Assembly (NCBI GenBank): GCA_030424955.1
Contig: JAUHVS010000075.1
Location: 1-14,498 of the forward strand
Reading direction: 5' to 3'
DNA: 14,498 nt
Origin: a bacterium
Lineage (GTDB): Bacteria > Myxococcota_A > Bradymonadia > UBA7976 > UBA1532
Made by a program: the position numbers and the translations under genes. Every line of letters starts with the position of its first letter. Position 1 is the first letter of the stretch. Positions 1 to 14,447 of the stretch are shown one piece after another. The notes under the pieces were generated by a model that had not been told where the DNA came from, made no database searches, and saw nothing but the letters and a program-made list of their open reading frames with translations.

Positions 1-1082
1 ACCCCCCTGGCGGACGCCAGCGCGGAGTGGTTCGAGCTGACGAACACCGCCGGGGTCGAGCTGTCGCTGGCGGGCTGCGCGGTGAGCGCGGCGGCCGGCG
101 AGACCGTGATCGGCGCCTTGGACCTCGCGGCCGACGGTGTCGCGCTCTTTGCGCAGTCCGAGGATCCGGCGCTGACCGGCGGGCTGGTGCCCGACGCGCT
201 GTTCGACTTCTTCCTGAGCAACTCGGGCGCGACCCTGACCCTGACCTGCGGCGGTGAGCTCATCGACAGCGTCACCTACTCGCCCGACGCGCCCTGGCCC
301 GCCGACGCGCGATACCACAGCCTCAGCCTCGATCCCGGCGCCCTCAACGCGGCGGCCAACGACGAGGCCGGCCGGTGGTGCTACGGCAGCACGGCCTACT
401 ACCTCAACGACCGCAACCCGCCCACGGACCACTTCGGCTCGCCGGGCGAGCTCAACCCGCCCTGCGACACCCCGGTGGACTTCTGCCGGCTGCAGTTCCC
501 CACCGAGATCGACGGGCAGGCGGGCGCCACGGTCACCGTCTACGGGCGCGTGTACCAGCCCAACATCACCGATCGCACCGCCGCCACCGACGCGCGGCTG
601 ACGGTGCGCGGCCAGCTCGGCTGGGGCCCCGATGGGGCGGATCCCGCCGACTGGATGTGGATGGACGCGGCGCCCAACGCTGACTGGGCCGCGCCGGCCG
701 ACAACAACGAGGACGAGTACCAGGCCGACCTGGTGCTGCCGGCCGAGGGCCTGTACGCCTACGGCTACCGCTTCACCGTGGACGGCGGCCGCACCTGGAC
801 CCTGTGCGACGGGGACGCCGAGGGCAGCAGCAACGGCTTCAACAGCCCCGGCGTGCTGCTCAGCAACGGGCCCATCGACCCCTGCGCGGGCGCCTGCCAG
901 GACGCGCCGGCCGCCGAGTGTGCCGACGCCAACACCGTCCGCACCTTCGAGGCGCCCGGCGCCTGCGACGTGGTGGGCGGCGAGCCGGTGTGCAGCTTCG
1001 CGCCCATCGACACCCCCTGCGCCGACGGCGAGATCTGTGAGGCCGGCGCCTGCGTCGTGTTGGGCCCCCGCGCCCCCCTGGC
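1..1082 (+). repeat. Tandem coding repeat unit 1 (partial at window edge) of the 1122-bp module
   Basis: Nucleotide-level near-identity with unit 2 at a fixed 1122-bp offset. For example, 739-812 vs 1861-1934 differ at about 1 of 74 nt, and 463-516 vs 1576-1629 are identical apart from a short central patch. The motif gagtggttcgagctg occurs at 28 and 1147. Confidence 0.8.
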
Positions 1083-3858
1083 GGGCGAGGTCATCTTCTC
1101 GGAGATCATGTACGACCCCCACGGCGTGCTGGCCGACGGCACCGCCGAGTGGTTCGAGCTGCACAACACCACCGCCGAGCCCCTGGATCTCGAGGGCTGC
1201 GTCTTCACCGCCAACGGCAACGGGGGCGCCCTGGGCGCCCTGGTGGTGGCGCCCGGCGACTACGTGGTGGTGGGCCAGAGCGCCGATCCGGCGGTGAATG
1301 GTGGGCTGGTGCCCGACGCCGTGCTGGGCTTCGCCCTGGGCAACGGCGGCTCGGAGCTGATCCTGACCTGCGGCGACGTGGCGGTGGACACGGTGGCCTA
1401 CGACGACGCCAACGGCTGGCCGCTGGACGCCCAGCGCCACAGCATCAGCCTGGACGGCGAGCTGCTCGACGGCGATCTCAACGATCTGCCCGAGGCGTGG
1501 TGCTTCGGCCGCGGCCTCTACTTCGCCAACGACGTCGACCCGGTGGATGACCACCGCGGCACCCCCGGCGCCGCGAACCCGCCCTGCGACGAGGCGGTGG
1601 ACTTCTGCCGGCTGCAGTTCCCCACCGAGATCGACGCCGAGGCGGGCACCGCCGTGACCGTGTACGGCCGGCTGTACGAAGAGGGCACCACCGACCGCAC
1701 GGCGGGCACCGACGCCCGCCAGTATGTGGGCGCGCAGCTCGGCTGGGGCCCCGACGGCGCCGATCCGGCGGACTGGGCCTGGATCAACGCGGCGCCCAAC
1801 GTCGACTGGGCCGCGCCGGCCGACAACAACGACGACGAGTACCAGGCCACCCTCGTGGTGCCGGCCGAGGGCCTGTACGCCTACGGCTACCGGTTCACCG
1901 TGGACGGCGGCCGCACCTGGACCCTGTGCGACGGCGACGCCGAGGGCAGCACCAACGGCTTCAACAGCCCGGGCGTGCTGCTCAGCAACGCGGTGGCGGA
2001 CCCCTGCGCGGGGGCCTGCCAGGACGCGCCGGCCGCCGAGTGCGCCGACGCCAACACCGCCCGCACCTTCGAGGCGCCCGGCGCCTGCGAGGTGGTGGGC
2101 GGCGAGCCGGTGTGCAGCTTCGCGCCCATCGACACCCCCTGCGCCGCGGGCGAGGTCTGCGACGCTGGCGTGTGCGCGGTGCCGCCGGTGCGCGGGCCCG
2201 CCGTGGGCGAGATCGTCATCAACGAGGTGATGTACGACCCCAGCGGATCGCTGGAAGACGCCACGGCCGAGTGGGCCGAGCTCAAGAACCTGACCAACGA
2301 GCCGCTGAGCCTGGCGGGCTGCCGGTTCACGGCCAACGGGAGCGGCGGCGACCTGGGGGCCAACGAGCTGGCGCCCAACGGCTTCTTCCTCATCGGCCGC
2401 AGCGCCGATCTGGCGGTCAACGGCGGGATCTTCCCGGACGTCGTGCTGAGCTTCAACGGCCTGGGCAACGGCGGCTCGACCCTGCTGCTGGTGTGCGACG
2501 GCGTCACCATCGACACCGTGGTCTACGACGACGCGGCGCCGTGGCCCCGCGACGCCCTGCGCCACAGCATCAGCCTGGACGTCGAGGTGGCCGACGCCGA
2601 TCTCAACGACCTGCCCGAGGCGTGGTGCTACGGCCGCGACCTGTACTACCGCGACGAGGCCAGCGCGGCGGACGACCACCGCGGCACCCCGGGCGCCGAG
2701 AACCCGCCCTGCGACAAGGCGGTGGACTTCTGCCGCCTGGCCGAGCCGCTGGCCCTCGAGGGGCTGCCGGGCGAGGCCTTCACCGTGCACGGTCGGCTGG
2801 TCGAGGCGGGGCTGACAGACCGGACCTCGGGCACCGACGTGCGCCAGTACGTGCGCGCCGAGGTCGGCCTGGGCCCGGCCGACAGCAGCCCCGTCGACAA
2901 CGTGGACTGGAGCTGGCAGGCGGCACAGGCCAACCCCGACTGGGACGCCGTGGCCGCCGACGCGGGCGACGAGGATGACTACCAGGCCAGCCTGTCGCTG
3001 CCCGACGCCGATGGCATCTACGAGTACACCTTCCGCGTGACCGTCGATGACGGCCGCACCTGGACCTACTGCGACGCGGACGGCGGCGACTACACCATCG
3101 GCAACGCGGGCATCGCCCTGGCGGCCGCGCCCACGCCGGTGGACTGGTGCCGCTTCCAGTGGAACCCCGACGTCACCGCGCAGTGGGGCGACGTCGTGCA
3201 GATGTACGGCCAGGTCTACAAGGAGGGCGTCACCGACCAGCCCGACGCGGCGGGCGCCGCGATCATCGGCCAGTTCGGCTTCGGCCCCGACGGCGAGGCC
3301 CCCGAGGGCAGCGCCAACTGGGTCTGGCAGGACGCCGCGCCCAACGCCGACTGGGACTTCGTGAACAACGCGAACGACGAGTACGTGGCGGACGCCGTGA
3401 TGCCCGAGGTGGTGGGCACGTTTGACAGCGCCTACCGCTTCAGCACCGACAACGGCGAGAGCTGGGTCTACTGCGACGCCGGCGACCCGGGCATCGCCGA
3501 CGGCTTCAACAACCCGGGCAACCTGGTCATCGAGGTGCGGCCCTTCGCGGCGGCCGAGGTGCAGGACAAGTTCAACACCACCTGCGCGGGCTGCCACACG
3601 GGCGGCGGCAGCTCCGGCGGCCTGAACCTCGACGTGTTCGAAGAGACCACCATCGGCGTCGCGGCCATCGGCTCGGCGCTGAACCACATCGAGCCCGGCG
3701 CGCCGGAGCGCAGCTACCTGATGGCCAAGCTCGTGGGCGTGCACCGCGACGCCCCGTTCTTCGGCGCGGGCAACCGGATGCCCATCGGGCAGCCCTGGAC
3801 CGACAACGAGCTGCTCCGGCTCGCCGCGTACATCCAGGCCCTCCCCCCGGTGCCCTGA
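1..3858 (+). CDS. 5'-truncated giant secreted multi-domain protein: three tandem ~374-aa modules (lamin-tail-domain-like + beta-sandwich + Cys-rich mini-domain, the last absent from module 3), a 4th beta-sandwich, and a C-terminal PSCyt1-like c-type cytochrome domain
   Basis: Frame 1 is open from nt 1. The first 27 codons (TPLADASAEWFELTNTAGVELSLAGC...) already match the internal repeat 'DGTAEWFELHNTTAEPLDLEGC', so the ATG at 82 is internal and the gene begins upstream of the window. LTD-like signature in each module (EWxEL.N....L.GC...., ...V.YDD). Conserved 'PPCD..VDFCRLQFPTEID' beta-domain. Stop TGA at 3856-3858. Strong codon third-position GC bias in this frame. Confidence 0.85.
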   Translation, partial: TPLADASAEWFELTNTAGVELSLAGCAVSAAAGETVIGALDLAADGVALFAQSEDPALTGGLVPDALFDFFLSNSGATLTLTCGGELIDSVTYSPDAPWPADARYHSLSLDPGALNAAANDEAGRWCYGSTAYYLNDRNPPTDHFGSPGELNPPCDTPVDFCRLQFPTEIDGQAGATVTVYGRVYQPNITDRTAATDARLTVRGQLGWGPDGADPADWMWMDAAPNADWAAPADNNEDEYQADLVLPAEGLYAYGYRFTVDGGRTWTLCDGDAEGSSNGFNSPGVLLSNGPIDPCAGACQDAPAAECADANTVRTFEAPGACDVVGGEPVCSFAPIDTPCADGEICEAGACVVLGPRAPLAGEVIFSEIMYDPHGVLADGTAEWFELHNTTAEPLDLEGCVFTANGNGGALGALVVAPGDYVVVGQSADPAVNGGLVPDAVLGFALGNGGSELILTCGDVAVDTVAYDDANGWPLDAQRHSISLDGELLDGDLNDLPEAWCFGRGLYFANDVDPVDDHRGTPGAANPPCDEAVDFCRLQFPTEIDAEAGTAVTVYGRLYEEGTTDRTAGTDARQYVGAQLGWGPDGADPADWAWINAAPNVDWAAPADNNDDEYQATLVVPAEGLYAYGYRFTVDGGRTWTLCDGDAEGSTNGFNSPGVLLSNAVADPCAGACQDAPAAECADANTARTFEAPGACEVVGGEPVCSFAPIDTPCAAGEVCDAGVCAVPPVRGPAVGEIVINEVMYDPSGSLEDATAEWAELKNLTNEPLSLAGCRFTANGSGGDLGANELAPNGFFLIGRSADLAVNGGIFPDVVLSFNGLGNGGSTLLLVCDGVTIDTVVYDDAAPWPRDALRHSISLDVEVADADLNDLPEAWCYGRDLYYRDEASAADDHRGTPGAENPPCDKAVDFCRLAEPLALEGLPGEAFTVHGRLVEAGLTDRTSGTDVRQYVRAEVGLGPADSSPVDNVDWSWQAAQANPDWDAVAADAGDEDDYQASLSLPDADGIYEYTFRVTVDDGRTWTYCDADGGDYTIGNAGIALAAAPTPVDWCRFQWNPDVTAQWGDVVQMYGQVYKEGVTDQPDAAGAAIIGQFGFGPDGEAPEGSANWVWQDAAPNADWDFVNNANDEYVADAVMPEVVGTFDSAYRFSTDNGESWVYCDAGDPGIADGFNNPGNLVIEVRPFAAAEVQDKFNTTCAGCHTGGGSSGGLNLDVFEETTIGVAAIGSALNHIEPGAPERSYLMAKLVGVHRDAPFFGAGNRMPIGQPWTDNELLRLAAYIQALPPVP
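1083..2204 (+). repeat. Tandem coding repeat unit 2 (complete 1122-bp module: LTD-like + beta-sandwich + Cys-rich)
   Basis: Period of 1122 bp (374 codons) defined by the 'GEVIFSEIMYDP' (1083) and 'GEIVINEVMYDP' (2205) module starts, with long near-identical nucleotide stretches shared with unit 1. Confidence 0.8.
2205..3131 (+). repeat. Tandem coding repeat unit 3 (diverged; LTD-like + beta-sandwich, Cys-rich mini-domain missing)
   Basis: Protein-level similarity to units 1-2 (EWAELKNLTNEPLSLAGCRFTANGSGG; PPCDKAVDFCRL...), but lower nucleotide identity, and it lacks the 8-Cys segment. End coordinate is approximate. Confidence 0.6.
3541..3855 (+). other. PSCyt1-like (Planctomycete-type cytochrome c) domain with CxxCH heme-binding motif at 3583-3597
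   Basis: 'FNTTCAGCHTGGGSSGGLNLD...IEPGAPERSYLMAKL....RMPIGQPWTDNELLRLAAYIQ' fits my recollection of the PSCyt1 pattern (F..C..CH....GGL.LD ... I.PG.PE.S.L...I ... MPP...L...E...L..WI). The Cys-Ala-Gly-Cys-His codons are tgc gcg ggc tgc cac at 3583-3597. Confidence 0.65.
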
Positions 3859-4037: not shown

Positions 4038-4076
4038 TTGAACCATTAGGCCGGTATTCGCCGGCTGTGGCTCAAA
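4037..4076 (+). promoter_or_regulatory. Nested imperfect palindrome: candidate HipB operator overlapping the hipB start codon
   Basis: Outer arms TTTGAACC (4037-4044) / GGCTCAAA (4069-4076), matching 7 of 8. Inner arms GCCGG (4050-4054) / CCGGC (4061-4065) on almost the same centre. It overlaps the -10-like hexamer and the GTG start at 4067. Confidence 0.4.
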
Positions 4077-4387
4077 TGTTGGCCCTTATGTCTCGCCTCC
4101 GTCTCCGCTCTCCAGATCAGGTACAGGCCGCCCTGGCCGAGCGGGCCCGGGCGCGGCGGCTGGCCTTGGGCTTCACCCAGCAGGCCGCGGCGGATCGCGC
4201 CGGCATGAGCCTGTCGAGCCTGAAGCGCTTCGAGCGCAGCGGCGACATCGCCTTGGCGTCCCTGCTGCGCCTGGCGGTGGTGCTCGACGCCCTCGATGAC
4301 TTCGAGCACCCCTTTGAGCTCAGCGAGGACCGCACCCTCGACGAGGTGCTCGCCCACGGGCAGCGCAAGCGGGGCTGGCGCTCGTGA
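4067..4387 (+). CDS. hipB: HipB-like XRE-family helix-turn-helix antitoxin / transcriptional regulator
   Basis: 106-aa product with an HTH_XRE-like segment (LGFTQQAAADRAGMSLSSLKRFERSGDIALASLLRLAVVLD). The start may be GTG 4067 or ATG 4076. Its stop TGA (4385-4387) overlaps the GTG start of the downstream HipA-family gene (GTGA). Confidence 0.8.
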   Translation: MAQMLALMSRLRLRSPDQVQAALAERARARRLALGFTQQAAADRAGMSLSSLKRFERSGDIALASLLRLAVVLDALDDFEHPFELSEDRTLDEVLAHGQRKRGWRS

Positions 4388-5628
4388 AGATCCCGGCCGA
4401 CGGCCCGCTGGCGGTCTGGTGGCGGCGGGCGCCGGGGGATGAGCAGCGCGTCGGGCGCCTGGCCCGCCGGCAGCGCCGGATCTACTTCGAGTACGACCCG
4501 GCGTTCGTCGCGGCCGGCGTCGAGCTCAGCCCCTTCGAGCTGCCCCTGGCGTCGGGGCTGTACACCGACCGCCACCAGACCTTCGAGGGCCTGCCGGGCC
4601 TGCTGCACGACAGCCTGCCCGACGGCTGGGGCCGGCTGCTGCTCGACCGCCAGGCGCGCCGCCTGGGCATCACGGGGCTCACGCCGCTCGATCGGCTGGC
4701 CTGCGTGGGCGACCGGGGCATGGGGGCGCTGGTCTATCGGCCCGAGGTCGCCATGGACGGGGCGGCCGGGGCGCTCGATCTGGACGTGCTGGCGGGCCAG
4801 GCCGCCGAGATCCTCGAGGGCCACGCCGACGAGCTCCTGCCGGCCTTGCTGCAGCTCGGCGGCTCGCCCGCGGGGGCTCGCCCGAAGGTCCTGCTGGGGC
4901 GCCGACCCGACGGCGTGTGGGTGCATGGGGCCGCCGATCTGCCGCCGGACTGGGCCGCGTGGCTGGTCAAGTTCCCGGCGCGGAGCGATCCCGCCGACAT
5001 CGGCGCCATCGAGGCCGCCTACGCGCAGATGGCGCGGGCAGCGGGCATCGACGTGACCGAGACGGCGCTGCTCCCGTCGACCACGGGCCCTGGCTGGTTC
5101 GGCACCCGCCGCTTCGACCGGCACGCGGGCCAGCGGCTGCACGTGCACACCCTGAGCGGGCTGCTCCACGCCGATCACCGCGTGCCGTCCCTCGACTACC
5201 AGGACGTGCTGCAGGCCACCTTCCTGCTGACCAAGGACGACCGCGCGGTGCGCCAGCAGTTCCGGCGCGCCGTGTTCAACGTGCGGGCCCACAACCGCGA
5301 CGATCACAGCCGGCAGTTCGCCTTCCTGCTGGGCGCGGACGGGGCCTGGCGGCTCGCGCCGGCCTACGATCTGACCTTCTCCGATGGCCCGGGCGGCGAG
5401 CACGCGATGCTGGTGATGGGGGAGGGGGCGTCGCCCGACGACACGCACCTGCTGGCGCTGGCGGCCCGGGCGCACCTGCCCCCGCGGGTCGCGCGGCAGA
5501 TCATGGCCGAGGTCGCCGAGGGGATCAGCCGCTGGCCCGCCCTCGCAGCCGCCCACGGCGTCAGCCGCCCCCAGCGCGCCGAGATCAGCCGTCGGCTGGG
5601 GATCGGGTCGCGCGGCGGATCGCGGTGA
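4384..5628 (+). CDS. hipA: HipA-family serine/threonine kinase toxin (type II TA)
   Basis: N-terminal HipA_N-like 'LSPFELPLASGLYTD...LPGLLHDSLPDGWGRLLL' (compare E. coli HipA ...FNFFDNLLPEG...). P-loop-like 'AGARPK' (E. coli AGAQEK). Catalytic-loop 'HNRDDHSRQFAF' with D306-D307-H308 (E. coli D309 region). 'LAPAYDLTFS' with D329 (E. coli D332, Mg-binding). 414 aa, stop TGA 5626-5628. Confidence 0.9.
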   Translation: MKIPADGPLAVWWRRAPGDEQRVGRLARRQRRIYFEYDPAFVAAGVELSPFELPLASGLYTDRHQTFEGLPGLLHDSLPDGWGRLLLDRQARRLGITGLTPLDRLACVGDRGMGALVYRPEVAMDGAAGALDLDVLAGQAAEILEGHADELLPALLQLGGSPAGARPKVLLGRRPDGVWVHGAADLPPDWAAWLVKFPARSDPADIGAIEAAYAQMARAAGIDVTETALLPSTTGPGWFGTRRFDRHAGQRLHVHTLSGLLHADHRVPSLDYQDVLQATFLLTKDDRAVRQQFRRAVFNVRAHNRDDHSRQFAFLLGADGAWRLAPAYDLTFSDGPGGEHAMLVMGEGASPDDTHLLALAARAHLPPRVARQIMAEVAEGISRWPALAAAHGVSRPQRAEISRRLGIGSRGGSR

Positions 5629-5736: not shown

Positions 5737-8700
5737 TTACCGCTTGAGCGAGCGGTCCAGCTTGCGCAGCTCGGTCAGGAGCTCATCGACCTTGGCCCCC
5801 ACGGCCTGCGCGTCCGCCAGGTTCTTGGTCGAGGCCTGCACCAGCGGCACCAGCGTGCGCTCCACGATCTGCACCTGCTGCGCGAGGAACTCCTCGACGC
5901 CCTTCGGGCTCTGCACCGTGACCTCGAGCTGCGGGTGCGCCAGGCGGCTGAGGGCGTCGGTGAGGGCCTGGATGGTGGCGGCGTCCAGGCTGCCCGTGCG
6001 CGACACGCTGACCTGGGGGAACTCCGGCTGCGTGTCCGTGAGCCCCGCGGCCTTGCGGTAGCCGGGGGGCAGCAGGCCCTTCTGAGAGGCCCCCAGCGGG
6101 GGCAGCGGCGGCGGCGTCTTGCCGTCCGCGGCGGGCGGCGCGGCGCCGGGCTGAACGCTCAGCCCCGCCAGCGCCTGCGCGATGGCGTCGAGCTTGCCGG
6201 CCAGGGCGCCGCCCGTGGGGCCCTGCTGCAGCGCCTCGCGGATGCCCTGCACCTGCCCCGCGAGGGCGCGGAACACCTTCTCCTGCTCCAGGCCCTGCGC
6301 CATCATCGCGCGGATGCCCGCGAGGCCCTTGCCCAGCTCGCCGATGGCCTGCTCGGTGGCGCCCGCGCCGCCCAGGCGCTCGCTCACCGTGCCCAGCCGC
6401 TCCGCGATGCTCGCCAGCGAGCGCTCCGTGGCGCCCGCCTGACCCAGCTTGGCCGTCAGCGCCCCAAGGTGGGTGCCGATGCCCGCCAGCGCGGCCTCGG
6501 TCTGCTTGCCCCCACCCTCGGCCAGGGCGGCGCCGATGCGGTCGAGCTGCTCGCTGATGCCCGCGAGGGTCGCCGCGACCCGGGTGGCGGGATCGTCCGT
6601 GGCCCCCCCGCTGATCTGCACCCGCCGGTAGCCGCGCTGGATCTCTGCCCAGCGCTCAGCCTCGGCCTCGGTGAGCTGCCCGCGCAGCTCGGCCAGCTTG
6701 AGCAGGTTGTTCTCGGCGCCCGTGGTCAGCGTCTGGCTCTCGCCGCGGTAGTGGTCGGTGATCAGGGCCTCGACCTCGTCGGCGTTCTGGGCCGCCACCA
6801 CCTTCTCGGCCAGCTTGTTCATGTTGCGGTACGAGCCCTGCAACTTGAACGGCGGCTCGCTGCGGAAGGCGTCGTCCATGCTGGCGCTGCGCACGTACTG
6901 CTGGTTCACCGACAGCACCACCCGCTGGATGGTGCGCAGCCGCTTGAAGACCTCGACGATCTCGTTGACCTCCACCGCCGAGTAGCCGTGCTTGAGGTCG
7001 GTCAGCGGCACCTCGGCGCCGTCGGCCATCTCGATGAGCTTGTAGACGTCGGCCTGAGGCCGCACCGCCAGGGGGGCCAGCGCCGAGTTGCTGGTCAGCG
7101 AGTTCTCCAGGTAGCTCAGCTCGAAGGCGTCGCGGCTGCCGCTGAGGATCTCGCCCAGGTTGTAGGTGTCGGCGCGGTTGGCGAGCATGTCGGGGATGAC
7201 GAACTTGTCGCCGGTCTCGGTGTACGGGTTGCCCGCCATGATCACGCAGAACTTCTTGCCCCGCATGTCGTAGGTGCGCGTGCGCCCCCGCCAGACGCCC
7301 TCGATGCGGCGCTGGGCGTCGCACAGCGAGATGAACTTCTGCATGAACTCGGGGTGCAGGTGCTGCACGTCGTCGAGGTACAGCATCACGTTGCTGCCCA
7401 TCTCGAAGGCCAGGTTGACCTTCTCGACCTCCTGGCGCGCCGTGGCGTTGGGCGCCTCGGCGGGGTCCAGCGACAGCACCTGGTGGCCCAGCGACGGGCC
7501 GTTGACCTTCACGAACACCAGCCCCAGCCGGTTGGCCACGTACTCCATCAGCGTGGTCTTGCCGTAGCCCGGGGGGCTGGTGAGCAGCAGCAGGCCCATC
7601 AGATCCGTGCGCTTGCCCGCGCCCGCGGCGCCCATCTGCTTGGCGAGGTTGTCGCCCACCAGCGGCAGGTACACGTCGTTGATGAGCTTGTTGCGCACGA
7701 AGGCGCTCATGACCTTCGGCTGGAACTCGTTGAGCCGCAGCCGCTGCCGGGCCGCCTCGACCACCTGCTGGCGCACCTCGCGGTAGCGCCGGTAGCCCGG
7801 CACGCGCTCGGCGATGAAGGCGCTGAGCCGCCCCATGAAGGCGTCCAGGCGCAGGGGCATGCTGCGGTCGTGGATGCGCGGGTGCTGCCCGAACAGGCCG
7901 GTGAGGGTGAGGCGGGTGACCGCGCTCGACGGCTCTCGTGGGAGGGCCTCGCCCAGGGCCACGACGCCCGCGGCCTCCAGCAGCAGCTCGGCGTCGAGCG
8001 GGGGGGCGGTCGCGTCCCCCTGGGCCGCCGCGTGGTGGGCGGCGTAGGTCTCGAGCCACGCGGTGGCGAGCTCCAGCCGGCCCGGCAGGTCTTGGTTCAG
8101 GGCGCGCAGATCGTCGTCAAAGGCGCGGCGATCGCCGCTGGTGTCGAGCTGGGCCAGCAGGCCGCTCACCAGATCCAGCGCCTCGCGGCTGGTGGTGAAG
8201 CGCGGGCGCTCGGCGGCCAGCTCCTCGACCAGGTAGGTGGCGGCGAGGGGCGCGTGCGGGACGAGCTCGCCCAGGCCGGCGGCGGGCAGGGCCTCGGTCA
8301 TCGCCGCTGCGATCTGGTCGCCGAGCACGTTCAGCGCGGGGTGGCTGCCCAGGCTGTCGCGCAGGCGGCTCAGGCTGCGGGCCTTGCGGTGCCAGCGGGC
8401 CTTGGCGTCGGCGTCGGTGTAGCCGGTCCAGAACAGCAGCGCGGCTGTGCGGGGCGCGGGCGCGAAGCGCAGCAGGCCCGCGGCCTGGCGCATGTGCAGC
8501 AGCTTCTCGAGGATCAGCGTGGCGTCGGCGTCGTGCAGCCCGCGCTCGTAGCCCTCGTCGTAGCGGGTCTGCGCCTGCTCGCGCACGAGGGCCAGCAGGC
8601 CGCCCTCGGATCGGGTGGCGTCCAGCAGGGCCTGCACCGTCAGGCCGCCCTCGCCGCGCTCGGCGGCGAAGAGCAGCGTCGCCGCCAGATACTCGGCCCG

Positions 8701-11475
8701 GTAGACGGTGGGATCCTCGCTGATGAGGGTCTGCGCCCAGTAGTCGCGGGTCGCCACGAAGGCGGGGTCGTCGATGGGCTCGTAGAAGTCGGTGCCCGTC
8801 AGGTGCAGGGCCATCTCGCCCTCGCCGCGGGGCACGATGGCCAGCTCCAGCGGGCGGGTGTTCACCGTGAACTGGTGGTTGCCCAGGCTGATGAGATCGC
8901 CGCCGCCCTCGAAGAGCTCCAGCTTGTCGCGCAGGCCGCGCAGGGCGTCGTTGCGCGCGCCCTTGAGCTGCCCCAGCAGGGCCTCGGCCCGCACCCCGTC
9001 GCCCAGCTCGCCCAGCTGCTCCGCCAGGCGGCGCAGCTTCATGATCATCGCGTCGCTGGCGAAGAACGCGTTGAGCTCGGTCTCGTCCTTGAAGGCGCGG
9101 GCCCGGCGGGCGACGCCCTCCAGGATGCGGGTGGCGGCGCCCTGGATGTTCTGGGCGCGGCGGTTGCGCTCGTCGAGCAGGGTCTGCTTGCGGGCGCCGA
9201 AGGCGTCGAACACCTCTTCGCGCTTGGCCGCCAGATCGCCCAGGAACTCGTCGAACTCGCTGAAGCGGGCCTCGAGCTCCTCGAGCTGCACCATCAGCCG
9301 GCCCTGCTCGTCGTCGCAGCGCTCGGGCGTGTCGCACATGGCCAGCGCGCTCGACACGCTCTGGCCGAACAGCTTGAACTGGGCGCCGAACTCGGCGCGG
9401 CCCTCGCGGCCCAGCAGCGACTTGCGGCGGCCCTCCAGGGTGGCGCGCACCCGGTTGAGCTGGCCGAAGACGTCGCTGATGTCCTCGAGGATCTGCGTGC
9501 GCGCCGTGGCGTCGTCGATCTCGAGCCCGCTGATGACCTCGGTCAGCAGATCCAGGCCCTGGGCGAGGGCCTCCAGGCGGGCCCGCAGCGGATCGATCTC
9601 GGCGACCTTCTCGCAGCGCTCGATGTCGCCGTCGAGGGTCTCCAGGTCGCGCTTCAGCGGCCCCAGCGACTCGTCGCGCAGCAGGAACTGCACGCACTCG
9701 CGGGTGATGCGGTCGAAGTGCTCGCTCGCCTCGGCGTCGAGGGTGTCGAGCCGCGCGCGATCGATGTAGCGCGTCTCCTGCTTGCTGATGATCTCGCCGC
9801 GCAGGGTGCGCAGGCCCGTGAGCGCCTTGAGGAAGGCCTCGACGGTGTTCAGCTCGCTGGTGGACAGGCTGCGGGTGACCTCGGCGTAGCGGGCCTCGGC
9901 GGTGGCGAGCACCTCGGCGGCCTGCTGGCGGAACGCCACCACCTTCTCGAACTCGTCGACGATCAGCTCAGCGGTGCGCTTGAGATCAGCCAGCCGGGGC
10001 GCGACGCCCACCTCGGCGTGGCCCAGCCAGTGGTAGCTGTCCGACATGCGGCCCAGGCCGCGGATCAGATCCTCGTAGGTCTGGCGGTCGGGGGTGGAGT
10101 TGTCCACCAGCCGGCACAGGCTGTAGGCGTCGCTGATCCCGCGCACCAGATCGGCGTTGCCCACCTTGGCCAGGTACGATCCGTCGGTGGGCGCCTGCGC
10201 GGCGAACTCCGCCGACGTGAAGGGCGTCTGCCACACCTGCATCGGGTGCACGCGGGTGGCGGCCTCGCTCGCGGTGCGGAACACCACCATGCGGCCGTCA
10301 TCGAAGATGCTGTAGCCGTGGCAGTAGATGGGGTTCTGCACCTCTTTGCGGATCAGGTTGTACGGCAGCAGCGCGTACAGGCCGGTGGCGCCCTCGTAGA
10401 AGACGTAGAGCACGTCCTCGCCGTTGGGGCTCTTGAGCGCGCGCTTGAACCGCAGGCCCGGCGGGGCGTTGTCGAAGACCTTGTAGTCGCCGGTGCGCAG
10501 GTAGTAGCCGCCGGGGAAGATCACGCCGTGATCCTCGGGCAGCTGCACGCAGGCGCGGCCGATGGCGTCGATGCGCGCGGCGCTCTGCGTGCGGGCGTTG
10601 AACACCAGGTAGCGGTAGGTCTCCTCGCGGTACGGCTTGATCTTCAGCAGCACCAGCTCGCCGAGCCGGGCGTAGTGGATCTCGCCGTCATCGAGGGTCT
10701 GGTTGGCGTCGTCGACGGGCTCGCGGTAGACGCCGGCGCCGTCGGCGGTGTTGTTCTCGACCTTGATGGTCAGATCACCGCCGACGGTCTCGACGAAGCA
10801 CACGTCCTCGATGTTGATGTGCGGGTGCTCGCCGCTGACCTGCATCTCGCGGGTGGTGGCGGTCCACTCGAAGTCGTGGCTGGGCGGCCACGTGTAGTCC
10901 CGGTCCCCGCGGTTGTCGATGTAGGTGAGCCGGCCGTCCTTCTCGACGCGCCAGCGGAACACCTTGATGTCGGCCTCGGCGGGGCCGATGCGGAACAGCG
11001 CCAGCAGCAGGGTGTCGGTCTTGCGCAGCTGCTCCAGCCGCGTCTCGCGGTAGTAGCGGTACAGGTCGGTGAAGGCTTTGACGAACTGCGGATCGGCGAG
11101 GAAGCCGCCCACCGCCTGATCGAGGGGGGCCGCGGCGAACTCGAGCCCATCGGCCGACTCGGTGTAGCCCTGGACGCTGAACACGTCTGAGACGGCGGTC
11201 TCTTGCTTGAGCCCCAGGAACACGTTGTAGGCCAGCAGCAGCTGCCCACCGACCTGAACGATGTCGCGGGGCACGCAGTTGTTCTCGGTGCGCACCCGGG
11301 CGTTGGTGGTGATGGCCAGCTCGTTGCCGCCGAACACCTCGGTGCGGGCAGCGTTGAGGGCGTCGACCTGAGCGCGCAGGGCCTTGCCCTGGCTCACCAG
11401 CCGCCCGCGGATCACCTCGTAGTTGCCGGCCTCAACGGCGGCGTCCGCCTGATCGACCTGCTGCTCGTCCGCCAT
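5737..11475 (-). CDS. Giant (1912 aa) multi-domain protein with central AAA+ (AAA_5/MoxR-McrB-dynein-like) ATPase, long unassigned N-terminal region, C-terminal Gly/Ala-rich helical repeat array, Pro-rich linker and small C-terminal domain
   Basis: Uninterrupted 5739-nt ORF with strong GC3 bias. ATG at 11475 is preceded by GAGGGAG (SD-like) 4 nt upstream. Walker A SPPGYGKTT (aa 1300-1308; nt 7552-7578). Walker B MLYLDD (D1368-D1369; nt 7369-7374). Sensor-1-like CVIMAGNP (N1416). Arg in LANRADTYNL (R1434). Stop TAA/TGA read at 5737. Confidence 0.9.
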   Translation of the reverse strand: MADEQQVDQADAAVEAGNYEVIRGRLVSQGKALRAQVDALNAARTEVFGGNELAITTNARVRTENNCVPRDIVQVGGQLLLAYNVFLGLKQETAVSDVFSVQGYTESADGLEFAAAPLDQAVGGFLADPQFVKAFTDLYRYYRETRLEQLRKTDTLLLALFRIGPAEADIKVFRWRVEKDGRLTYIDNRGDRDYTWPPSHDFEWTATTREMQVSGEHPHINIEDVCFVETVGGDLTIKVENNTADGAGVYREPVDDANQTLDDGEIHYARLGELVLLKIKPYREETYRYLVFNARTQSAARIDAIGRACVQLPEDHGVIFPGGYYLRTGDYKVFDNAPPGLRFKRALKSPNGEDVLYVFYEGATGLYALLPYNLIRKEVQNPIYCHGYSIFDDGRMVVFRTASEAATRVHPMQVWQTPFTSAEFAAQAPTDGSYLAKVGNADLVRGISDAYSLCRLVDNSTPDRQTYEDLIRGLGRMSDSYHWLGHAEVGVAPRLADLKRTAELIVDEFEKVVAFRQQAAEVLATAEARYAEVTRSLSTSELNTVEAFLKALTGLRTLRGEIISKQETRYIDRARLDTLDAEASEHFDRITRECVQFLLRDESLGPLKRDLETLDGDIERCEKVAEIDPLRARLEALAQGLDLLTEVISGLEIDDATARTQILEDISDVFGQLNRVRATLEGRRKSLLGREGRAEFGAQFKLFGQSVSSALAMCDTPERCDDEQGRLMVQLEELEARFSEFDEFLGDLAAKREEVFDAFGARKQTLLDERNRRAQNIQGAATRILEGVARRARAFKDETELNAFFASDAMIMKLRRLAEQLGELGDGVRAEALLGQLKGARNDALRGLRDKLELFEGGGDLISLGNHQFTVNTRPLELAIVPRGEGEMALHLTGTDFYEPIDDPAFVATRDYWAQTLISEDPTVYRAEYLAATLLFAAERGEGGLTVQALLDATRSEGGLLALVREQAQTRYDEGYERGLHDADATLILEKLLHMRQAAGLLRFAPAPRTAALLFWTGYTDADAKARWHRKARSLSRLRDSLGSHPALNVLGDQIAAAMTEALPAAGLGELVPHAPLAATYLVEELAAERPRFTTSREALDLVSGLLAQLDTSGDRRAFDDDLRALNQDLPGRLELATAWLETYAAHHAAAQGDATAPPLDAELLLEAAGVVALGEALPREPSSAVTRLTLTGLFGQHPRIHDRSMPLRLDAFMGRLSAFIAERVPGYRRYREVRQQVVEAARQRLRLNEFQPKVMSAFVRNKLINDVYLPLVGDNLAKQMGAAGAGKRTDLMGLLLLTSPPGYGKTTLMEYVANRLGLVFVKVNGPSLGHQVLSLDPAEAPNATARQEVEKVNLAFEMGSNVMLYLDDVQHLHPEFMQKFISLCDAQRRIEGVWRGRTRTYDMRGKKFCVIMAGNPYTETGDKFVIPDMLANRADTYNLGEILSGSRDAFELSYLENSLTSNSALAPLAVRPQADVYKLIEMADGAEVPLTDLKHGYSAVEVNEIVEVFKRLRTIQRVVLSVNQQYVRSASMDDAFRSEPPFKLQGSYRNMNKLAEKVVAAQNADEVEALITDHYRGESQTLTTGAENNLLKLAELRGQLTEAEAERWAEIQRGYRRVQISGGATDDPATRVAATLAGISEQLDRIGAALAEGGGKQTEAALAGIGTHLGALTAKLGQAGATERSLASIAERLGTVSERLGGAGATEQAIGELGKGLAGIRAMMAQGLEQEKVFRALAGQVQGIREALQQGPTGGALAGKLDAIAQALAGLSVQPGAAPPAADGKTPPPLPPLGASQKGLLPPGYRKAAGLTDTQPEFPQVSVSRTGSLDAATIQALTDALSRLAHPQLEVTVQSPKGVEEFLAQQVQIVERTLVPLVQASTKNLADAQAVGAKVDELLTELRKLDRSLKR
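6150..6591 (-). repeat. Coding array of ~6 Gly/Ala-rich amphipathic helical repeats (~24-26 aa each; aa 1629-1775 of the giant protein)
   Basis: Protein: VAATLAGISEQLDRIGAALAEGGGKQ / TEAALAGIGTHLGALTAKLGQAGATE / RSLASIAERLGTVSERLGGAGATE / QAIGELGKGLAGIRAMMAQGLEQE / KVFRALAGQVQGIREALQQGPTGG / ALAGKLDAIAQALAGLSV. The DNA shows recurring motifs (gcccgccag, ctcgccgatg, gccagggcg). Confidence 0.6.
7150..7670 (-). other. AAA+ ATPase core (AAA_5-like) of the giant protein; Walker A 7552-7578, Walker B 7366-7392
   Basis: GxxGxGKT P-loop. About 60 residues to the hhhhDD Walker B. About 47 residues further to the '...IMAGNP' sensor-1, typical of the MoxR/McrB/dynein AAA_5 clade. Note Asp-Asp instead of the canonical Asp-Glu. 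Confidence 0.7.
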
Positions 11476-11596: not shown

Positions 11597-13855
11597 TCAG
11601 CCCTCGACGTCGAGGCCCAGGGCCTTGGCCTGGGCCGCGAGCTGCGCGAGCTTCGTGGCCCGCTCGCCCTCGGCGCCGCTGGCCAGCTTCGTGAGCAGGC
11701 TCGCCAGGCTGACGTTCTTGAGATCCTCGGCGGACACGCCGCTGATCATCTGCGTCAGGTCGTCGGGCAGGCTGCGGGAGCCGTCCAGGTAGCCGCCGAG
11801 GGTCTTCTGGGCGGTCTCGCTGTTGTCCATGAACCCGTCCATGGACTGGCCCAGGCTGACGGCCTTGACGAAGCGATCGAAGAAGGCGCCGTCGCCGCCC
11901 ACGATGTTGATCTTCGCCTGCTGCATGGCGGCGCCCATGACCTGCGCCTGCGCCTGCGCGACGGTGACCTGGGTCTCCATGCGCTTGAAGGCGATGAGCC
12001 GCTGCTGGTCGAGCTGGAAGCGGAACTCCTCGTGGGCCCGGCCCTCGGCGTCCAGCTGCTTCATCGCCAGCGCCTTCTCGGCCAGCCCCTTGGCCTCGGC
12101 CAGGTACTGCTCCTCGGCCGCCTTGGCCTCGGCGATACCGCGCTTCTCGATGGCCTGGGCCTCGGCCTCCTGCACCCGGACCAGGGCCATGCCCTTCTCC
12201 TGGTCGCCGGCGGCCTCGGCCAGCTTGGTGCCGCGCACCACGTCGGCCTGGGCCTCGCCCTCCTTGCGGTGGGCGTCGGCCTTGGCCTCGCGCACCTTCA
12301 CCTCGGCCAGCCCCTTCTGCTCGGTGGCCACGGCGTCGGCCTGGGCCTGCTCCACGCTCACCTTCGCGCGGGCGAGGCCCACCTTCTCGATGGCGCCGGC
12401 CTCGGCCTCCTGCACGCGCACCTTGGCCAGCCCCTCGGCGGCGGACTCGGCCTGCACACCCTCGGCGAGCCGGATCTTCGCGCGGGCCAGCTTGTCGGCG
12501 GCCTCCAGATCGGCCTCGGCCATGGTGAGCTTCTTGCGGGCGTCGTGCTTGGCGACCTCTTCCTGGGCCTCGGCGGCCTTGATGTGCTTGACCAGCTCCT
12601 GCTGGGCCTCGGCCTCGGCGCCGACGATGGTCACCTTCTTGTTTCGCTCCGCCTCGGCGTGGGCGCGCAGGTCCTTGATGCGCTCCTCCTCCTCGGCGAC
12701 GGTCTTCTCGACGGCGATGCGCCCGCGCACCACGTCGGCGATCTCCTTGCGCTGGACCTCGAGGTCCTTCTCCTTGGCGATGCGGCGCAGCTCCACCTCG
12801 CGCTCGCGCCCCACCTCTTCGAGATCGGCGGCCTTCTTGACCCGCACGCCCTCGACGGCGACCTCGCGCTCGCGGGCCTTGTTGGCCACCTCGACGGCGC
12901 GGGCCTTGTTCTCCTCGCCGATCTGCACCTCTTCCTGGGCCTTCTGGCGGGTCAGCGCCGTGCGCTTCTCCTCCTCGGCGCGCACCCGCTCGGCCTCGTT
13001 GCCCTCGCGGGTCTGGGCGATGGCGATCTCTTTGTCCTTCTTCGCCTGGGCGTCGGCGCGGGCCTGCTCGAAGCGGTAGACCGCCTCGTCCGCCGTCAGA
13101 TCCTGACGGCCGATGTCCATGCGCTCCTTCTGCTTGAGCTCGTTGGTCTGCACGTTCTGCATGGCCGTGAGCTCGGTGATCTTGCGGATACCCTGGGCGT
13201 CCAGGACGTTCGCCGGATCGAGCTTGCTGAGCGGGGTCTGCTCCAGGAAGTCGATGGCCGCGTCCTCGAGGGCGTAGCCGTTGAGGTCCTGGCCGATGAC
13301 CTCGATGATCTGGTCCTTGAAGTCATCGCGCTGGGTGTAGAGCTGCTCGAACTCGAGCCGCTTGCCCACGGTCTTCAGGGCCTCCGAGAACTTCGCCAGG
13401 AACAGCTCCTGCAGCGTCTCGTGGTGGCTGGCGCGGGCGCAGCCGATGGCCTGGGCGACCTTCAGCACGTCGTCCTTGGTCTTGTTGACCCGCACGAAGA
13501 AGGTGACCTGGATGTCGGCGCGGATGTTGTCTTTGCAGATCAGGCCCTCGTGGCCCTCGCGCTTCAGCTCGATGGCCTTGACCGAGATGTCCATCACCTC
13601 GGCCTTGTGGATGATGGGGACCACCACCCCGCCGGTGAACGTGACGTCGGGCTCGGCCCGCATCTTGTTGATGATCAACGCCTTGCCCTGCTCCACCTTG
13701 CGGTAGAACTTGGCGATCATCACCGCCACGCCCGCGAGGACGAGGACGACGATCCCAAAGCGACGGCCCTGAGCGCCTGACCTCGTGAGTCGGTCCACGA
13801 GAGACGCCTTAGAAGCGGACGACGAAGCCGCCTGGGCCGGTGGGGACCGCACCAC
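11597..13855 (-). CDS. SPFH/Band-7 flotillin-family membrane protein (long form, 752 aa) with extended Glu/Ala-rich coiled-coil
   Basis: N-terminal TM hairpin (FGIVVLVLAGVAVMIA). SPFH-like core (KFYRKVEQGKALIINKMRAEPDVTFTGGVVVPIIHKAEVMDISVKAIEL...KDNIRADIQVTFFVRV...). Long EA-rich flotillin-type repeats (RVQEAEAGAIEKVGLARAK... duplicated). Stop TGA at 11597-11599. Start uncertain: ATG 13855 overlaps the upstream gene by 47 nt, or GTG 13798 lies 8 nt after the upstream stop. Confidence 0.88.
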   Translation of the reverse strand: MVRSPPAQAASSSASKASLVDRLTRSGAQGRRFGIVVLVLAGVAVMIAKFYRKVEQGKALIINKMRAEPDVTFTGGVVVPIIHKAEVMDISVKAIELKREGHEGLICKDNIRADIQVTFFVRVNKTKDDVLKVAQAIGCARASHHETLQELFLAKFSEALKTVGKRLEFEQLYTQRDDFKDQIIEVIGQDLNGYALEDAAIDFLEQTPLSKLDPANVLDAQGIRKITELTAMQNVQTNELKQKERMDIGRQDLTADEAVYRFEQARADAQAKKDKEIAIAQTREGNEAERVRAEEEKRTALTRQKAQEEVQIGEENKARAVEVANKAREREVAVEGVRVKKAADLEEVGREREVELRRIAKEKDLEVQRKEIADVVRGRIAVEKTVAEEEERIKDLRAHAEAERNKKVTIVGAEAEAQQELVKHIKAAEAQEEVAKHDARKKLTMAEADLEAADKLARAKIRLAEGVQAESAAEGLAKVRVQEAEAGAIEKVGLARAKVSVEQAQADAVATEQKGLAEVKVREAKADAHRKEGEAQADVVRGTKLAEAAGDQEKGMALVRVQEAEAQAIEKRGIAEAKAAEEQYLAEAKGLAEKALAMKQLDAEGRAHEEFRFQLDQQRLIAFKRMETQVTVAQAQAQVMGAAMQQAKINIVGGDGAFFDRFVKAVSLGQSMDGFMDNSETAQKTLGGYLDGSRSLPDDLTQMISGVSAEDLKNVSLASLLTKLASGAEGERATKLAQLAAQAKALGLDVEG

Positions 13856-14447
13856 CGCGGGCGCTGAGATCGTCCATCTGCTCTTCGCGGGCCGCCTGGA
13901 CCGCGATCCCCGTGATCGCGCCCGCAGAGGCGGCGATCGCCGCGACGGTCAGCCAGAAGTACCACTTCTTGACGATCCGCTCCTTTGGCTTCGGCGGCGG
14001 CGGCCTGGCCTTCGTCGGTCCAGGCTTCGGATCGAGGGCTGCGAGGCGGGCAGCTCGGGCCTCGTCGAGCTCCTCACGGTGGGTCGAGTCGGGCTCGTCC
14101 AAGGCGGCCCCGCGCGACTCCTCCTGCAGCTCCTTGATGGTCGCGGTCGCGGTCTCGCGTTCGGAGACCGCGTCCTCGTCGAGCGCCTCGCGGTAGCCGC
14201 TCCAGGCCGCGATCGCGGCCTCGTAGTCGCCGAGCGCGGTCGCGGCCTCGGCCTCCTTGGCCCAATTGGCCGGGCTCGGATCGTCCTCGCGGGCGGCGAC
14301 GGCGAGCTCGCGAGCTCGGGTCAGGTCACCGGCTTCGAGCGCGGCCTCCACAGACGAGGCGGAGGCCGCCGGCGCGGCGAGAAGCGGCCGGGGTCCGAGG
14401 CAGAGGCCGACGCTGAGGGTCGCGACGAGGAGGGAGACGCAGGACAT
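13809..14447 (-). CDS. Small (212 aa) exported TPR-like / bitopic membrane protein, first gene of the flotillin cluster
   Basis: N-terminal signal-peptide-like segment (MSCVSLLVATLSVGLCLGPRPLLAAPAASA). Two TPR-like helical hairpins (AALEAGDLTRARELAVAA... ATALGDYEAAIAAWSGYREAL). Acidic segment. Pro/Lys-rich linker. C-terminal TM helix (WYFWLTVAAIAASAGAITGIAV) and a short tail. Same strand as, and overlapping or abutting, the flotillin start. Confidence 0.65.
   Translation of the reverse strand: MSCVSLLVATLSVGLCLGPRPLLAAPAASASSVEAALEAGDLTRARELAVAAREDDPSPANWAKEAEAATALGDYEAAIAAWSGYREALDEDAVSERETATATIKELQEESRGAALDEPDSTHREELDEARAARLAALDPKPGPTKARPPPPKPKERIVKKWYFWLTVAAIAASAGAITGIAVQAAREEQMDDLSARGGAVPTGPGGFVVRF

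What the first reader, a model, noticed from the sequence alone, without database searches (positions are those of the whole stretch)
3132..3858. Unusual fusion: LTD-repeat surface protein ending in a PSCyt1-type heme-binding cytochrome c domain
In the genomes where I have seen PSCyt1 domains described (Planctomycetes, Verrucomicrobia, Myxococcota), they usually sit at the N-termini of proteins with PSD1/DUF1549/DUF1553. Here a CxxCH-bearing PSCyt1-like domain terminates a protein whose remaining domains (LTD-like, beta-sandwich with conserved W/Y positions, Cys-rich) look like extracellular binding or adhesion modules. A covalently haem-loaded C-terminus on a giant repeat protein suggests redox chemistry at the cell surface, or a haem/ligand sensor domain. 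The fourth beta-sandwich (VDWCRFQWNPDV..., 3132-3540) is a degenerate copy of the module beta-domain.
Basis: partly seen in the sequence, partly recalled or inferred. Interest (0 to 1): 0.6.

Follow-up and report, generated by a model that had tools for sequence, protein, structure and literature searches.

The report
Giant surface lipoprotein ending in cytochrome c
The gene encodes the tail of a very large exported repeat protein from a myxobacterium-like organism that ends in a small haem-binding cytochrome c domain. This design recurs in public data, but its function has never been studied.

Summary
One ORF in frame 1 (nt 1-3858, N-terminus off the window) encodes three Lamin-Tail domains, four copies of an unnamed ~137-aa beta-sandwich, two Cys-rich linkers and a 105-aa C-terminal cytochrome c domain (nt 3541-3855).

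The haem signature is CAGCH (nt 3583-3597) plus Met-Pro (nt 3778-3783). Both Cys, the His and the Met-Pro are invariant in 38 homologues of about 35% identity.

Pfam places the domain at threshold for PSCyt1 (22.4 bits, cut-off 22) and for Cytochrom_C (24.2, cut-off 21.3). A profile built from PSCyt1 domains of classical PSD-type proteins matches it over its full length (55.8 bits). "PSCyt1-type" is therefore right.

"Unusual" is only partly right:
- 16 proteins in my searches carry an LTD followed by a C-terminal copy of this domain, including a syntenic orthologue and a 3955-aa protein with ten LTDs.
- 119 of 142 family representatives end with the domain.

Complete homologues start with lipoprotein signal peptides, and gene neighbourhoods are not conserved.

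Most likely this is an exported lipoprotein with binding modules and a distal His/Met haem c acting as a one-electron module. The function is inferred, not shown. I found no paper describing this architecture. It is a new variant of a known kind and of moderate interest.

The parts
1..3858 (+). C-terminal 1285 codons plus stop of one large gene; the N-terminus lies left of the window
   Evidence: Open frame 1. GC3 is 0.97-0.99. It is 64% identical to P0001, whose contig has the same downstream hipB-hipA genes.
1..378 (+). LTD copy 1 (cut by the window edge)
   Evidence: Pfam LTD, three stretches. Local jackhmmer envelope is residues 1-126.
469..870 (+). Beta-sandwich copy 1 (E-set/Ig-like, unnamed family)
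   Evidence: phmmer envelope residues 157-290. Alignment.
871..1056 (+). Cys-rich linker 1
   Evidence: Read from the translation: eight Cys in about 60 residues. A second, weak Myxo_Cys_RPT hint lies in linker 2.
1057..1500 (+). LTD copy 2
   Evidence: Pfam best stretch is residues 361-467. Envelope is 353-500.
1591..1995 (+). Beta-sandwich copy 2
   Evidence: Envelope residues 531-665. 81% identical to copy 1.
1996..2178 (+). Cys-rich linker 2
   Evidence: Translation. Weak TIGR04201 Myxo_Cys_RPT hit at residues 714-725.
2179..2625 (+). LTD copy 3
   Evidence: Envelope residues 727-875. Pfam LTD.
2716..3117 (+). Beta-sandwich copy 3
   Evidence: Envelope residues 906-1039. 49% identical to copy 1.
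3133..3543 (+). Beta-sandwich copy 4 (diverged). It follows copy 3 directly, with no Cys-rich linker or LTD between them.
3541..3855 (+). Mono-haem cytochrome c domain, PSCyt1-related
3583..3597 (+). Haem-attachment motif C-A-G-C-H (Cys1195, Cys1198, His1199 of the visible protein)
   Evidence: Read. C, C and H are invariant in 38 homologues.
3778..3783 (+). Met1260-Pro1261, the candidate sixth (axial) haem ligand
   Evidence: Met and Pro are invariant in 38 homologues. They align with the Met-Pro of the Cytochrom_C and CBB3 models, which match the domain end to end.

Best explanation
The ORF is the C-terminal part of a very large exported protein, most likely a lipoprotein, of a Myxococcota-type bacterium. 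It is a string of binding-type modules: [Lamin-Tail domain - E-set beta-sandwich - disulfide-rich linker] repeated, then a fourth sandwich. It is capped by a roughly 100-residue cytochrome c domain related to PSCyt1.

Inferred mechanism: after Sec export, the cytochrome c maturation system attaches one haem covalently to Cys1195 and Cys1198. His1199 and Met1260 act as the axial ligands. The haem domain then sits at the end furthest from the lipid anchor and works as a one-electron transfer module, passing electrons to or from a partner or substrate that the LTD and sandwich modules hold.

What is shown: the domain composition, the conservation of the haem ligands, the recurrence of the architecture, and the signal peptides of homologues.

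What is inferred: haem loading, His/Met ligation, cellular location and the electron-transfer role. I put roughly 0.9 on the domain identity and about 0.3-0.4 on the electron-transfer role. The overall confidence of 0.6 blends the two.
For: Domain identity:
- Pfam LTD 92.9 bits. Cytochrom_C 24.2, PSCyt1 22.4 and CBB3 24.4 bits on the last 105 aa.
- C19, C22, H23, M84 and P85 are invariant in 38 sequences of about 35% identity.
- A profile of 8 PSCyt1 domains from PSCyt1-PSD3-PSD5-PSD4-PSCyt3-PSD2 proteins matches the window domain at 55.8 bits over model positions 2-96 of 104.
- The exhaustive search finds 7277 clusters. In almost all of the top hits there is one haem motif per domain copy.

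Recurrence of the architecture:
- Orthologue P0001 has the same ending and the same downstream hipBA.
- P0003, P0021, P0038, P0182, P0186 (ten LTDs, 3955 aa), P0195, P0196, P0129 and others have an LTD followed by a C-terminal cytochrome domain.

Export:
- Complete homologues begin with lipobox signal peptides.
- The Cys-rich linkers and the conserved Cys pair in the sandwich fit an oxidising compartment.

Electron-transfer role:
- A stand-alone family member (P0065) is encoded between two FAD-binding flavoprotein genes whose ends overlap or nearly abut it, a flavocytochrome-like arrangement.
- Cytochrome c modules inside large extracellular binding proteins are known to donate electrons: the X183 domain of Cbp2D reduces LPMOs (PMC8981238).
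Against: - The Pfam cytochrome hits fall below their cut-offs when the whole protein is scanned (17.3-17.5 bits).
- The N-terminus, and so the signal peptide, is not in the window and could not be recovered.
- Nothing shows that this organism has a haem-attachment system.
- No redox partner is encoded nearby. Neighbourhoods differ between the window and the P0003, P0021 and P0186 loci.
- A single haem on the far end of a long string of Ig-like modules is badly placed for electron transfer back to the cell.
Confidence: 0.6

Rival explanations
1. The terminal haem domain is a sensor or ligand-binding module (redox, gas or small-molecule) rather than an electron carrier.
For: There is one isolated haem, no neighbouring redox genes, and no obvious electron path back to the cell along the string of modules.
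Against: The invariant Met-Pro together with His indicates a six-coordinate His/Met haem. That is typical of electron carriers and leaves no open site. The visible 1285 residues and the homologues contain no signalling output domain. One family member sits in a flavoprotein operon.
Confidence: 0.12
2. The domain is itself a catalyst on an external substrate, for example an Fe(II) oxidase like FoxE or a peroxidase-like activity, held at its substrate by the binding modules.
Against: The similarity is at fold level only. FoxE is a di-haem protein encoded in a fox operon, and no such context exists here. A His/Met six-coordinate haem is a poor peroxidase.
Confidence: 0.08
3. It is an ordinary class I cytochrome c domain (Cytochrom_C/CBB3 type), and the PSCyt1 label is an artefact of a short Pfam model that mostly recognises CxxCH.
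For: Cytochrom_C and CBB3 score as well as PSCyt1 and cover the whole domain. PSCyt1 covers only model positions 1-46 of 59. Only 2 of the 5 LTD-linked copies reach a PSCyt1 hit.
Against: The family profile matches PSCyt1 domains of classical PSD-type proteins end to end at 60-87 bits per copy, and the reverse profile matches the window domain at 55.8 bits. Solved class I cytochromes reach only about 23 bits.
Confidence: 0.1
4. The CxxCH is incidental. The domain is a haem-free structural cap or a decayed cytochrome.
For: A few distant homologues lack the two Cys (P0097, P0236, P0237).
Against: In the window protein and in all 38 aligned relatives, the two Cys, the His and the Met-Pro are intact. 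GC3 of 0.99 indicates a live coding sequence.
Confidence: 0.03

Closest known systems
PSCyt1 (PF07635, 'Planctomycete cytochrome C') domains of PSCyt/PSD multidomain proteins of Planctomycetes and Verrucomicrobia
   Same: Homologous domain of about 100 aa: CxxCH near the start, a conserved PG..SYL..K segment, Met-Pro, and a C-terminal WI..G helix. Both are modules in large exported proteins that also carry binding domains (CBM60, Laminin_G, WD40). Function is unknown in both (PMC5615132, PMC3542564).
   Different: Here the domain is single and at the extreme C-terminus. It follows LTD and E-set repeats instead of sitting N-terminal to PSD1-5, PSCyt2 or PSCyt3. The Pfam score is only at threshold. 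The host is Myxococcota-like.
Bacterial Lamin-Tail-Domain proteins (PF00932)
   Same: Three clear LTD copies. Homologues are lipoproteins, as reported for other prokaryotic LTD proteins (PMC5118699).
   Different: LTD proteins discussed in the literature are nucleases or hydrolases thought to be membrane-associated (PMC5118699). This one has no hydrolase domain in the visible part and ends in a cytochrome.
X183 c-type cytochrome domains of Cbp2D (Cellvibrio japonicus) and TERTU_2913/3803 (Teredinibacter turnerae)
   Same: A small c-type cytochrome module inside a large extracellular multidomain protein with carbohydrate-binding-type modules. CjX183 reduces LPMOs (PMC8981238; PMC10916295). This is the best functional analogue.
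FoxE (PDB 5mab), putative Fe(II) oxidase of Rhodobacter ferrooxidans SW2
   Different: FoxE is a soluble di-haem protein of about 260 aa without LTD or E-set modules, and the similarity is moderate.

Membership tests
PSCyt1 (PF07635) | Pfam HMM score at or above the gathering cut-off (22 bits) | tested here: inconclusive
   22.4 bits when the 105-aa domain is scanned alone, 20.3 for the 241-aa fragment, 17.3 for the whole protein.
PSCyt1 (PF07635) | Full-length homology to PSCyt1 domains of classical PSCyt/PSD-architecture proteins | tested here: met
   A profile of 8 domain copies from P0107, P0117 and P0188 (Pfam PSCyt1 25-52 bits, with PSD2-5 and PSCyt3) matches the window domain at 55.8 bits over model positions 2-96 of 104. 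Caveat: those three proteins were found with a profile that included the window domain.
PSCyt1 (PF07635) | Usual architecture: N-terminal position, together with PSD1/PSCyt2 (DUF1549/DUF1553) or PSD2-5/PSCyt3 | tested here: not met
   No PSD or PSCyt2/3 hit in the 1285 visible residues, and the domain is C-terminal. The unseen N-terminus cannot be excluded, but LTD-cytochrome homologues with complete N-termini show none.
Class I c-type cytochrome (Pfam clan of PF00034 / PF13442) | CxxCH near the N-terminus of the domain plus a distal Met ligand, both conserved | tested here: met
   CAGCH and Met-Pro are invariant in 38 homologues. PF00034 scores 24.2 bits (cut-off 21.3) and matches model positions 2-89 of 90.
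Class I c-type cytochrome (Pfam clan of PF00034 / PF13442) | All-alpha cytochrome c fold | tested here: inconclusive
Class I c-type cytochrome (Pfam clan of PF00034 / PF13442) | Covalently bound haem | not testable with these tools
   Needs a haem stain, pyridine haemochrome assay or mass spectrometry of the expressed protein.
Lamin Tail Domain (PF00932) | Pfam HMM score above the cut-off (34.3 bits) | tested here: met
   92.9 bits, three stretches.
Bacterial lipoprotein | N-terminal signal peptide with a lipobox Cys | not testable with these tools
   The N-terminus lies outside the window, and the contig could not be extended. At least 27 of 48 homologues with a start codon have one, including the LTD-cytochrome proteins P0003, P0186, P0195 and P0209.
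Carbohydrate-binding modules (Pfam CBM families), for the beta-sandwich | A match to a CBM HMM | tested here: not met
X183 cytochrome domains (Cbp2D type) | Sequence or specific structural similarity to CjX183 or TtX183 | tested here: inconclusive

The most novel reading that the evidence does not exclude
These giant LTD lipoproteins could be 'redox adhesins' on the surface of Myxococcota and Bradymonadia. A long stalk of Ig-like modules would bind an external polymer, mineral or prey surface and present a single high-potential His/Met haem c at its tip, carrying out extracellular one-electron chemistry. Examples would be feeding secreted oxidative enzymes or oxidising Fe(II). This would be a mode of extracellular redox biology distinct from multihaem wires. 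It would also give the first function for the PSCyt1 superfamily, which has more than 7000 clusters.
Probability: 0.1. Interest if true: 0.7.

Novelty: new variant of a known kind. Interest (0 to 1): 0.4.

Why it matters
PSCyt1-type domains are abundant: 7277 clusters at 50% identity matched the profile. The papers I read on PSCyt-domain proteins still state that nothing is known about their function (PMC5615132).

This window shows that the domain is not confined to the planctomycete PSD architectures. In Myxococcota-like genomes it recurs as the C-terminal cap of huge LTD-repeat lipoproteins, which public annotation labels only as "lamin tail domain-containing protein".

The roughly 105-residue domain, with a confident model, is a small target for expression. 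Showing that it carries haem and measuring its potential would be a cheap first experiment on a large uncharacterised family. It would also test whether bacteria other than cellulose degraders attach cytochrome c modules to extracellular binding proteins.

Tried and rejected
- A word-indexed homologue search with the C-terminal 241 aa found nothing. Homologues appeared only with the whole protein or a profile.
- I tried to recover the N-terminus and source contig four ways, all without success. A HipA exact look-up gave only 4.3-4.6 kb contigs that end inside the gene. A protein-pattern scan of genome contigs gave nothing. Exact 40-mer scans of genome contigs and metagenome contigs gave nothing.
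- A two-domain MAFFT alignment (A3) stretched the sandwich fragments into the cytochrome region. I discarded it and modelled the two domains separately (A4, A5).
- Gene-neighbourhood inference failed. The window and the P0003, P0021, P0038 and P0186 loci share no neighbours. Multihaem cytochrome genes about 5 kb from P0186 are separated from it by unrelated genes, so I treated them as coincidence.
- NCBIfam has no model for the haem domain. PADLOC finds nothing relevant in the neighbouring genes.
- I considered a chance CxxCH or a spurious ORF in GC-rich DNA and rejected both, on the conservation and the GC3 profile.
Full report
**1. What is in the sequence**

The window is about 73% G+C. Frame 1 of the + strand is open from nt 1 to a stop at 3856-3858, so the gene starts left of the window and 1285 codons are visible. 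Third-position G+C is 0.97-0.99 along the whole frame, including 3133-3855, and drops to 0.81 in the spacer after the stop. This is a real coding frame with no break before the last domain.

Pfam finds three Lamin Tail Domains (PF00932, 92.9 bits against a cut-off of 34.3). It finds an Asp-box. In the last 105 residues it finds three cytochrome c clan models:

| Pfam model | Score, 105-aa domain alone (bits) | Cut-off (bits) | Model positions matched |
|---|---|---|---|
| Cytochrom_C | 24.2 | 21.3 | 2-89 of 90 |
| PSCyt1 | 22.4 | 22 | 1-46 of 59 |
| Cytochrome_CBB3 | 24.4 | 27 | 2-68 of 68 |

When the whole protein is scanned these fall to about 17 bits.

The repeat unit is LTD, then a beta-sandwich of about 137 aa, then a Cys-rich linker. 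Local searches place:
- the LTDs at residues 1-126, 353-500 and 727-875;
- the sandwiches at residues 157-290, 531-665, 906-1039 and 1045-1181.

Sandwich 4 (nt 3133-3543) is 47% identical to copy 1, while copies 1 and 2 are 81% identical.

**2. Is the haem motif real?**

Fifty-four homologues of the whole protein were found, all LTD proteins from Myxococcales, Bradymonadia or Myxococcota metagenome-assembled genomes. Four of them end in the same domain with CxxCH: P0001 (64% identical), P0003, P0021 and P0038. P0001 is an orthologue: its contig continues into hipB-hipA exactly as the window does.

A profile of the five C-terminal domains found 41 further proteins. In an alignment of 38 domains averaging about 35% identity, the invariant positions are Cys19, Cys22, His23, Ser62, Lys67, Gly81, Met84, Pro85 and Ile102. 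These are the two haem-attachment cysteines, the proximal histidine and a Met-Pro of the kind that supplies the sixth ligand in class I cytochromes c. In window coordinates they are C1195/C1198/H1199 (nt 3583-3597) and M1260-P1261 (nt 3778-3783).

It fails, so the claim survives.

**3. Which cytochrome family?**

An exhaustive profile search of 1.84 billion representatives returned 7277 clusters at E<=1e-3 and 1627 at E<=1e-10. These proteins carry one to eight copies of the domain and range from 95 to 3955 aa. In almost all of the top hits the number of CX(1-4)CH motifs equals the number of domain copies.

Pfam scans of long hits show varied partner domains:
- classical planctomycete-type architectures: PSCyt1 x2-3, PSD3, CBM60, PSD5, PSD4, PSCyt3, PSD2 (P0107, P0117, P0188);
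- CHRD domains;
- Big_7;
- a PQQ-type propeller;
- MopE copper motifs;
- LTD.

A profile that I built only from the eight PSCyt1 copies of the three PSD-type proteins matches the window domain at 55.8 bits, nearly end to end. By contrast, solved class I cytochromes reach only about 23 bits against the family profile. The domain is therefore a relative of PSCyt1. The Pfam model covers only the first half of the real domain, which explains the marginal score.

**4. How unusual is the fusion?**

Among all proteins gathered, 16 combine an LTD with this cytochrome domain. In every case the LTD is upstream and the cytochrome is at the C-terminus, often only 20-30 residues after the LTD. They include P0186, which is 3955 aa with ten LTDs and a terminal domain 57% identical to the window's. 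They also include P0129, which has five MopE motifs, one LTD and two cytochrome copies.

LTD-linked copies are frequently each other's nearest relatives, which suggests an inherited fusion that spread within this lineage. C-terminal placement is the norm for the subfamily: 119 of 142 representatives.

I found no paper that mentions this architecture. Public annotation calls these proteins only "lamin tail domain-containing protein".

**5. The other modules**

Complete homologues start with lipoprotein signal peptides. The Cys-rich linkers fit an oxidising, extracytoplasmic location.

**6. Context**

Downstream lie hipB-hipA (nt 4067-5628), a 1912-aa DUF3686/DUF7902/AAA ATPase on the minus strand, and two unannotated genes. 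None is a redox gene. The loci of P0003, P0021, P0038 and P0186 share no neighbours with the window or with each other. The gene therefore appears to stand alone.

One stand-alone member of the cytochrome family (P0065, Zoogloea) lies between two FAD-binding flavoprotein genes whose ends overlap or nearly abut it. This is a flavocytochrome-like layout that supports electron transfer as the family's basic activity.

**7. Most likely mechanism**

Shown: the protein is a multi-module, probably lipid-anchored exported protein whose last domain has all the sequence requirements of a mono-haem His/Met cytochrome c.

Inferred from established knowledge of c-type cytochrome biogenesis: haem is attached covalently in the periplasm after Sec export.

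Inferred from analogy: the haem acts as a one-electron module serving whatever the LTD and sandwich modules bind. The best functional analogue is the X183 cytochrome domain of Cbp2D, which reduces lytic polysaccharide monooxygenases (PMC8981238; PMC10916295).

The rivals are a sensor haem, a FoxE-like catalyst, a generic class I cytochrome and a haem-free relic. They are weighed in the rival-explanations section. None is favoured, but the first two cannot be excluded without biochemistry.

**8. Verdict**

This is a new architectural variant of a known kind: exported multidomain proteins carrying PSCyt1-type cytochrome modules. The family has no known function. Interest is moderate (0.4). The main value is that it offers a small, well-defined domain for a first biochemical test on a very large uncharacterised family.

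Noticed in passing
window 4067-5628 (+): A hipB-like HTH antitoxin gene (about 103-106 aa) overlaps a 414-aa HipA kinase toxin gene (Couple_hipA + HipA_C). The same pair follows the orthologous LTD-cytochrome gene on contig L006, so the synteny is conserved between two genomes only 64% identical in the big gene.
   Followed up: partly
window 5737-11475 (-): A 1912-aa protein with DUF3686 ('ATPase involved in DNA repair', 676 bits), DUF7902 and a central AAA+ module. It has no PADLOC match and no NCBIfam name.
   Followed up: partly
window 11597-13855 (-) and 13809-14447 (-): A 752-aa protein with no Pfam, NCBIfam or PADLOC hit. By eye it has an N-terminal membrane helix, an SPFH/flotillin-like segment and a long Glu/Ala/Lys-rich coiled coil. 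This accounts for the strong AT skew (-0.45) and lower G+C (0.66-0.72) of the region. A 212-aa unknown ORF lies upstream of it.
   Followed up: no
window 2716-3543 compared with P0001 residues 1020-1527: In the window protein, sandwiches 3 and 4 are adjacent. The orthologue P0001 has a Cys-rich linker and an extra LTD between the corresponding sandwiches. One repeat element has been lost or gained since the two diverged.
   Followed up: partly
window 469-870 vs 1591-1995: Modules 1 and 2 are 81% identical at protein level, against 47-49% for modules 3 and 4. This points to a recent internal duplication or gene conversion within the repeat array.
   Followed up: no
homologues P0063-P0090: Small homologues of the haem domain vary in the spacing of the attachment motif: CxCH, CxxCH, CxxxCH and CxxxxCH all occur at the same alignment position.
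   Followed up: no
P0097 (3575 aa, 7 copies), P0236, P0237: Distant members keep the Met-Pro, the SYL..K segment and the C-terminal helix but lack both haem-attachment cysteines. Some keep a His, and they have 'PC' where others have 'PG'. They may be haem-free or non-covalent-haem derivatives. The N-terminus of P0097 does not look bacterial.
   Followed up: no
locus of P0186 (JGI 3300072015): Three multihaem cytochrome genes (weak or faint Cytochrom_CIII, C7 and MtrC-like Pfam hits) lie about 5-8 kb upstream of the ten-LTD cytochrome gene, on the opposite strand and separated from it by unrelated genes.
   Followed up: no
L008 4268-7890 (Zoogloea sp. GCA_028693495.1): A 132-aa stand-alone member of the same cytochrome family is encoded between two FAD_binding_2 flavoprotein genes. 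It overlaps the first by 4 nt and ends 34 nt before the second, which suggests an uncharacterised flavocytochrome c system.
   Followed up: no
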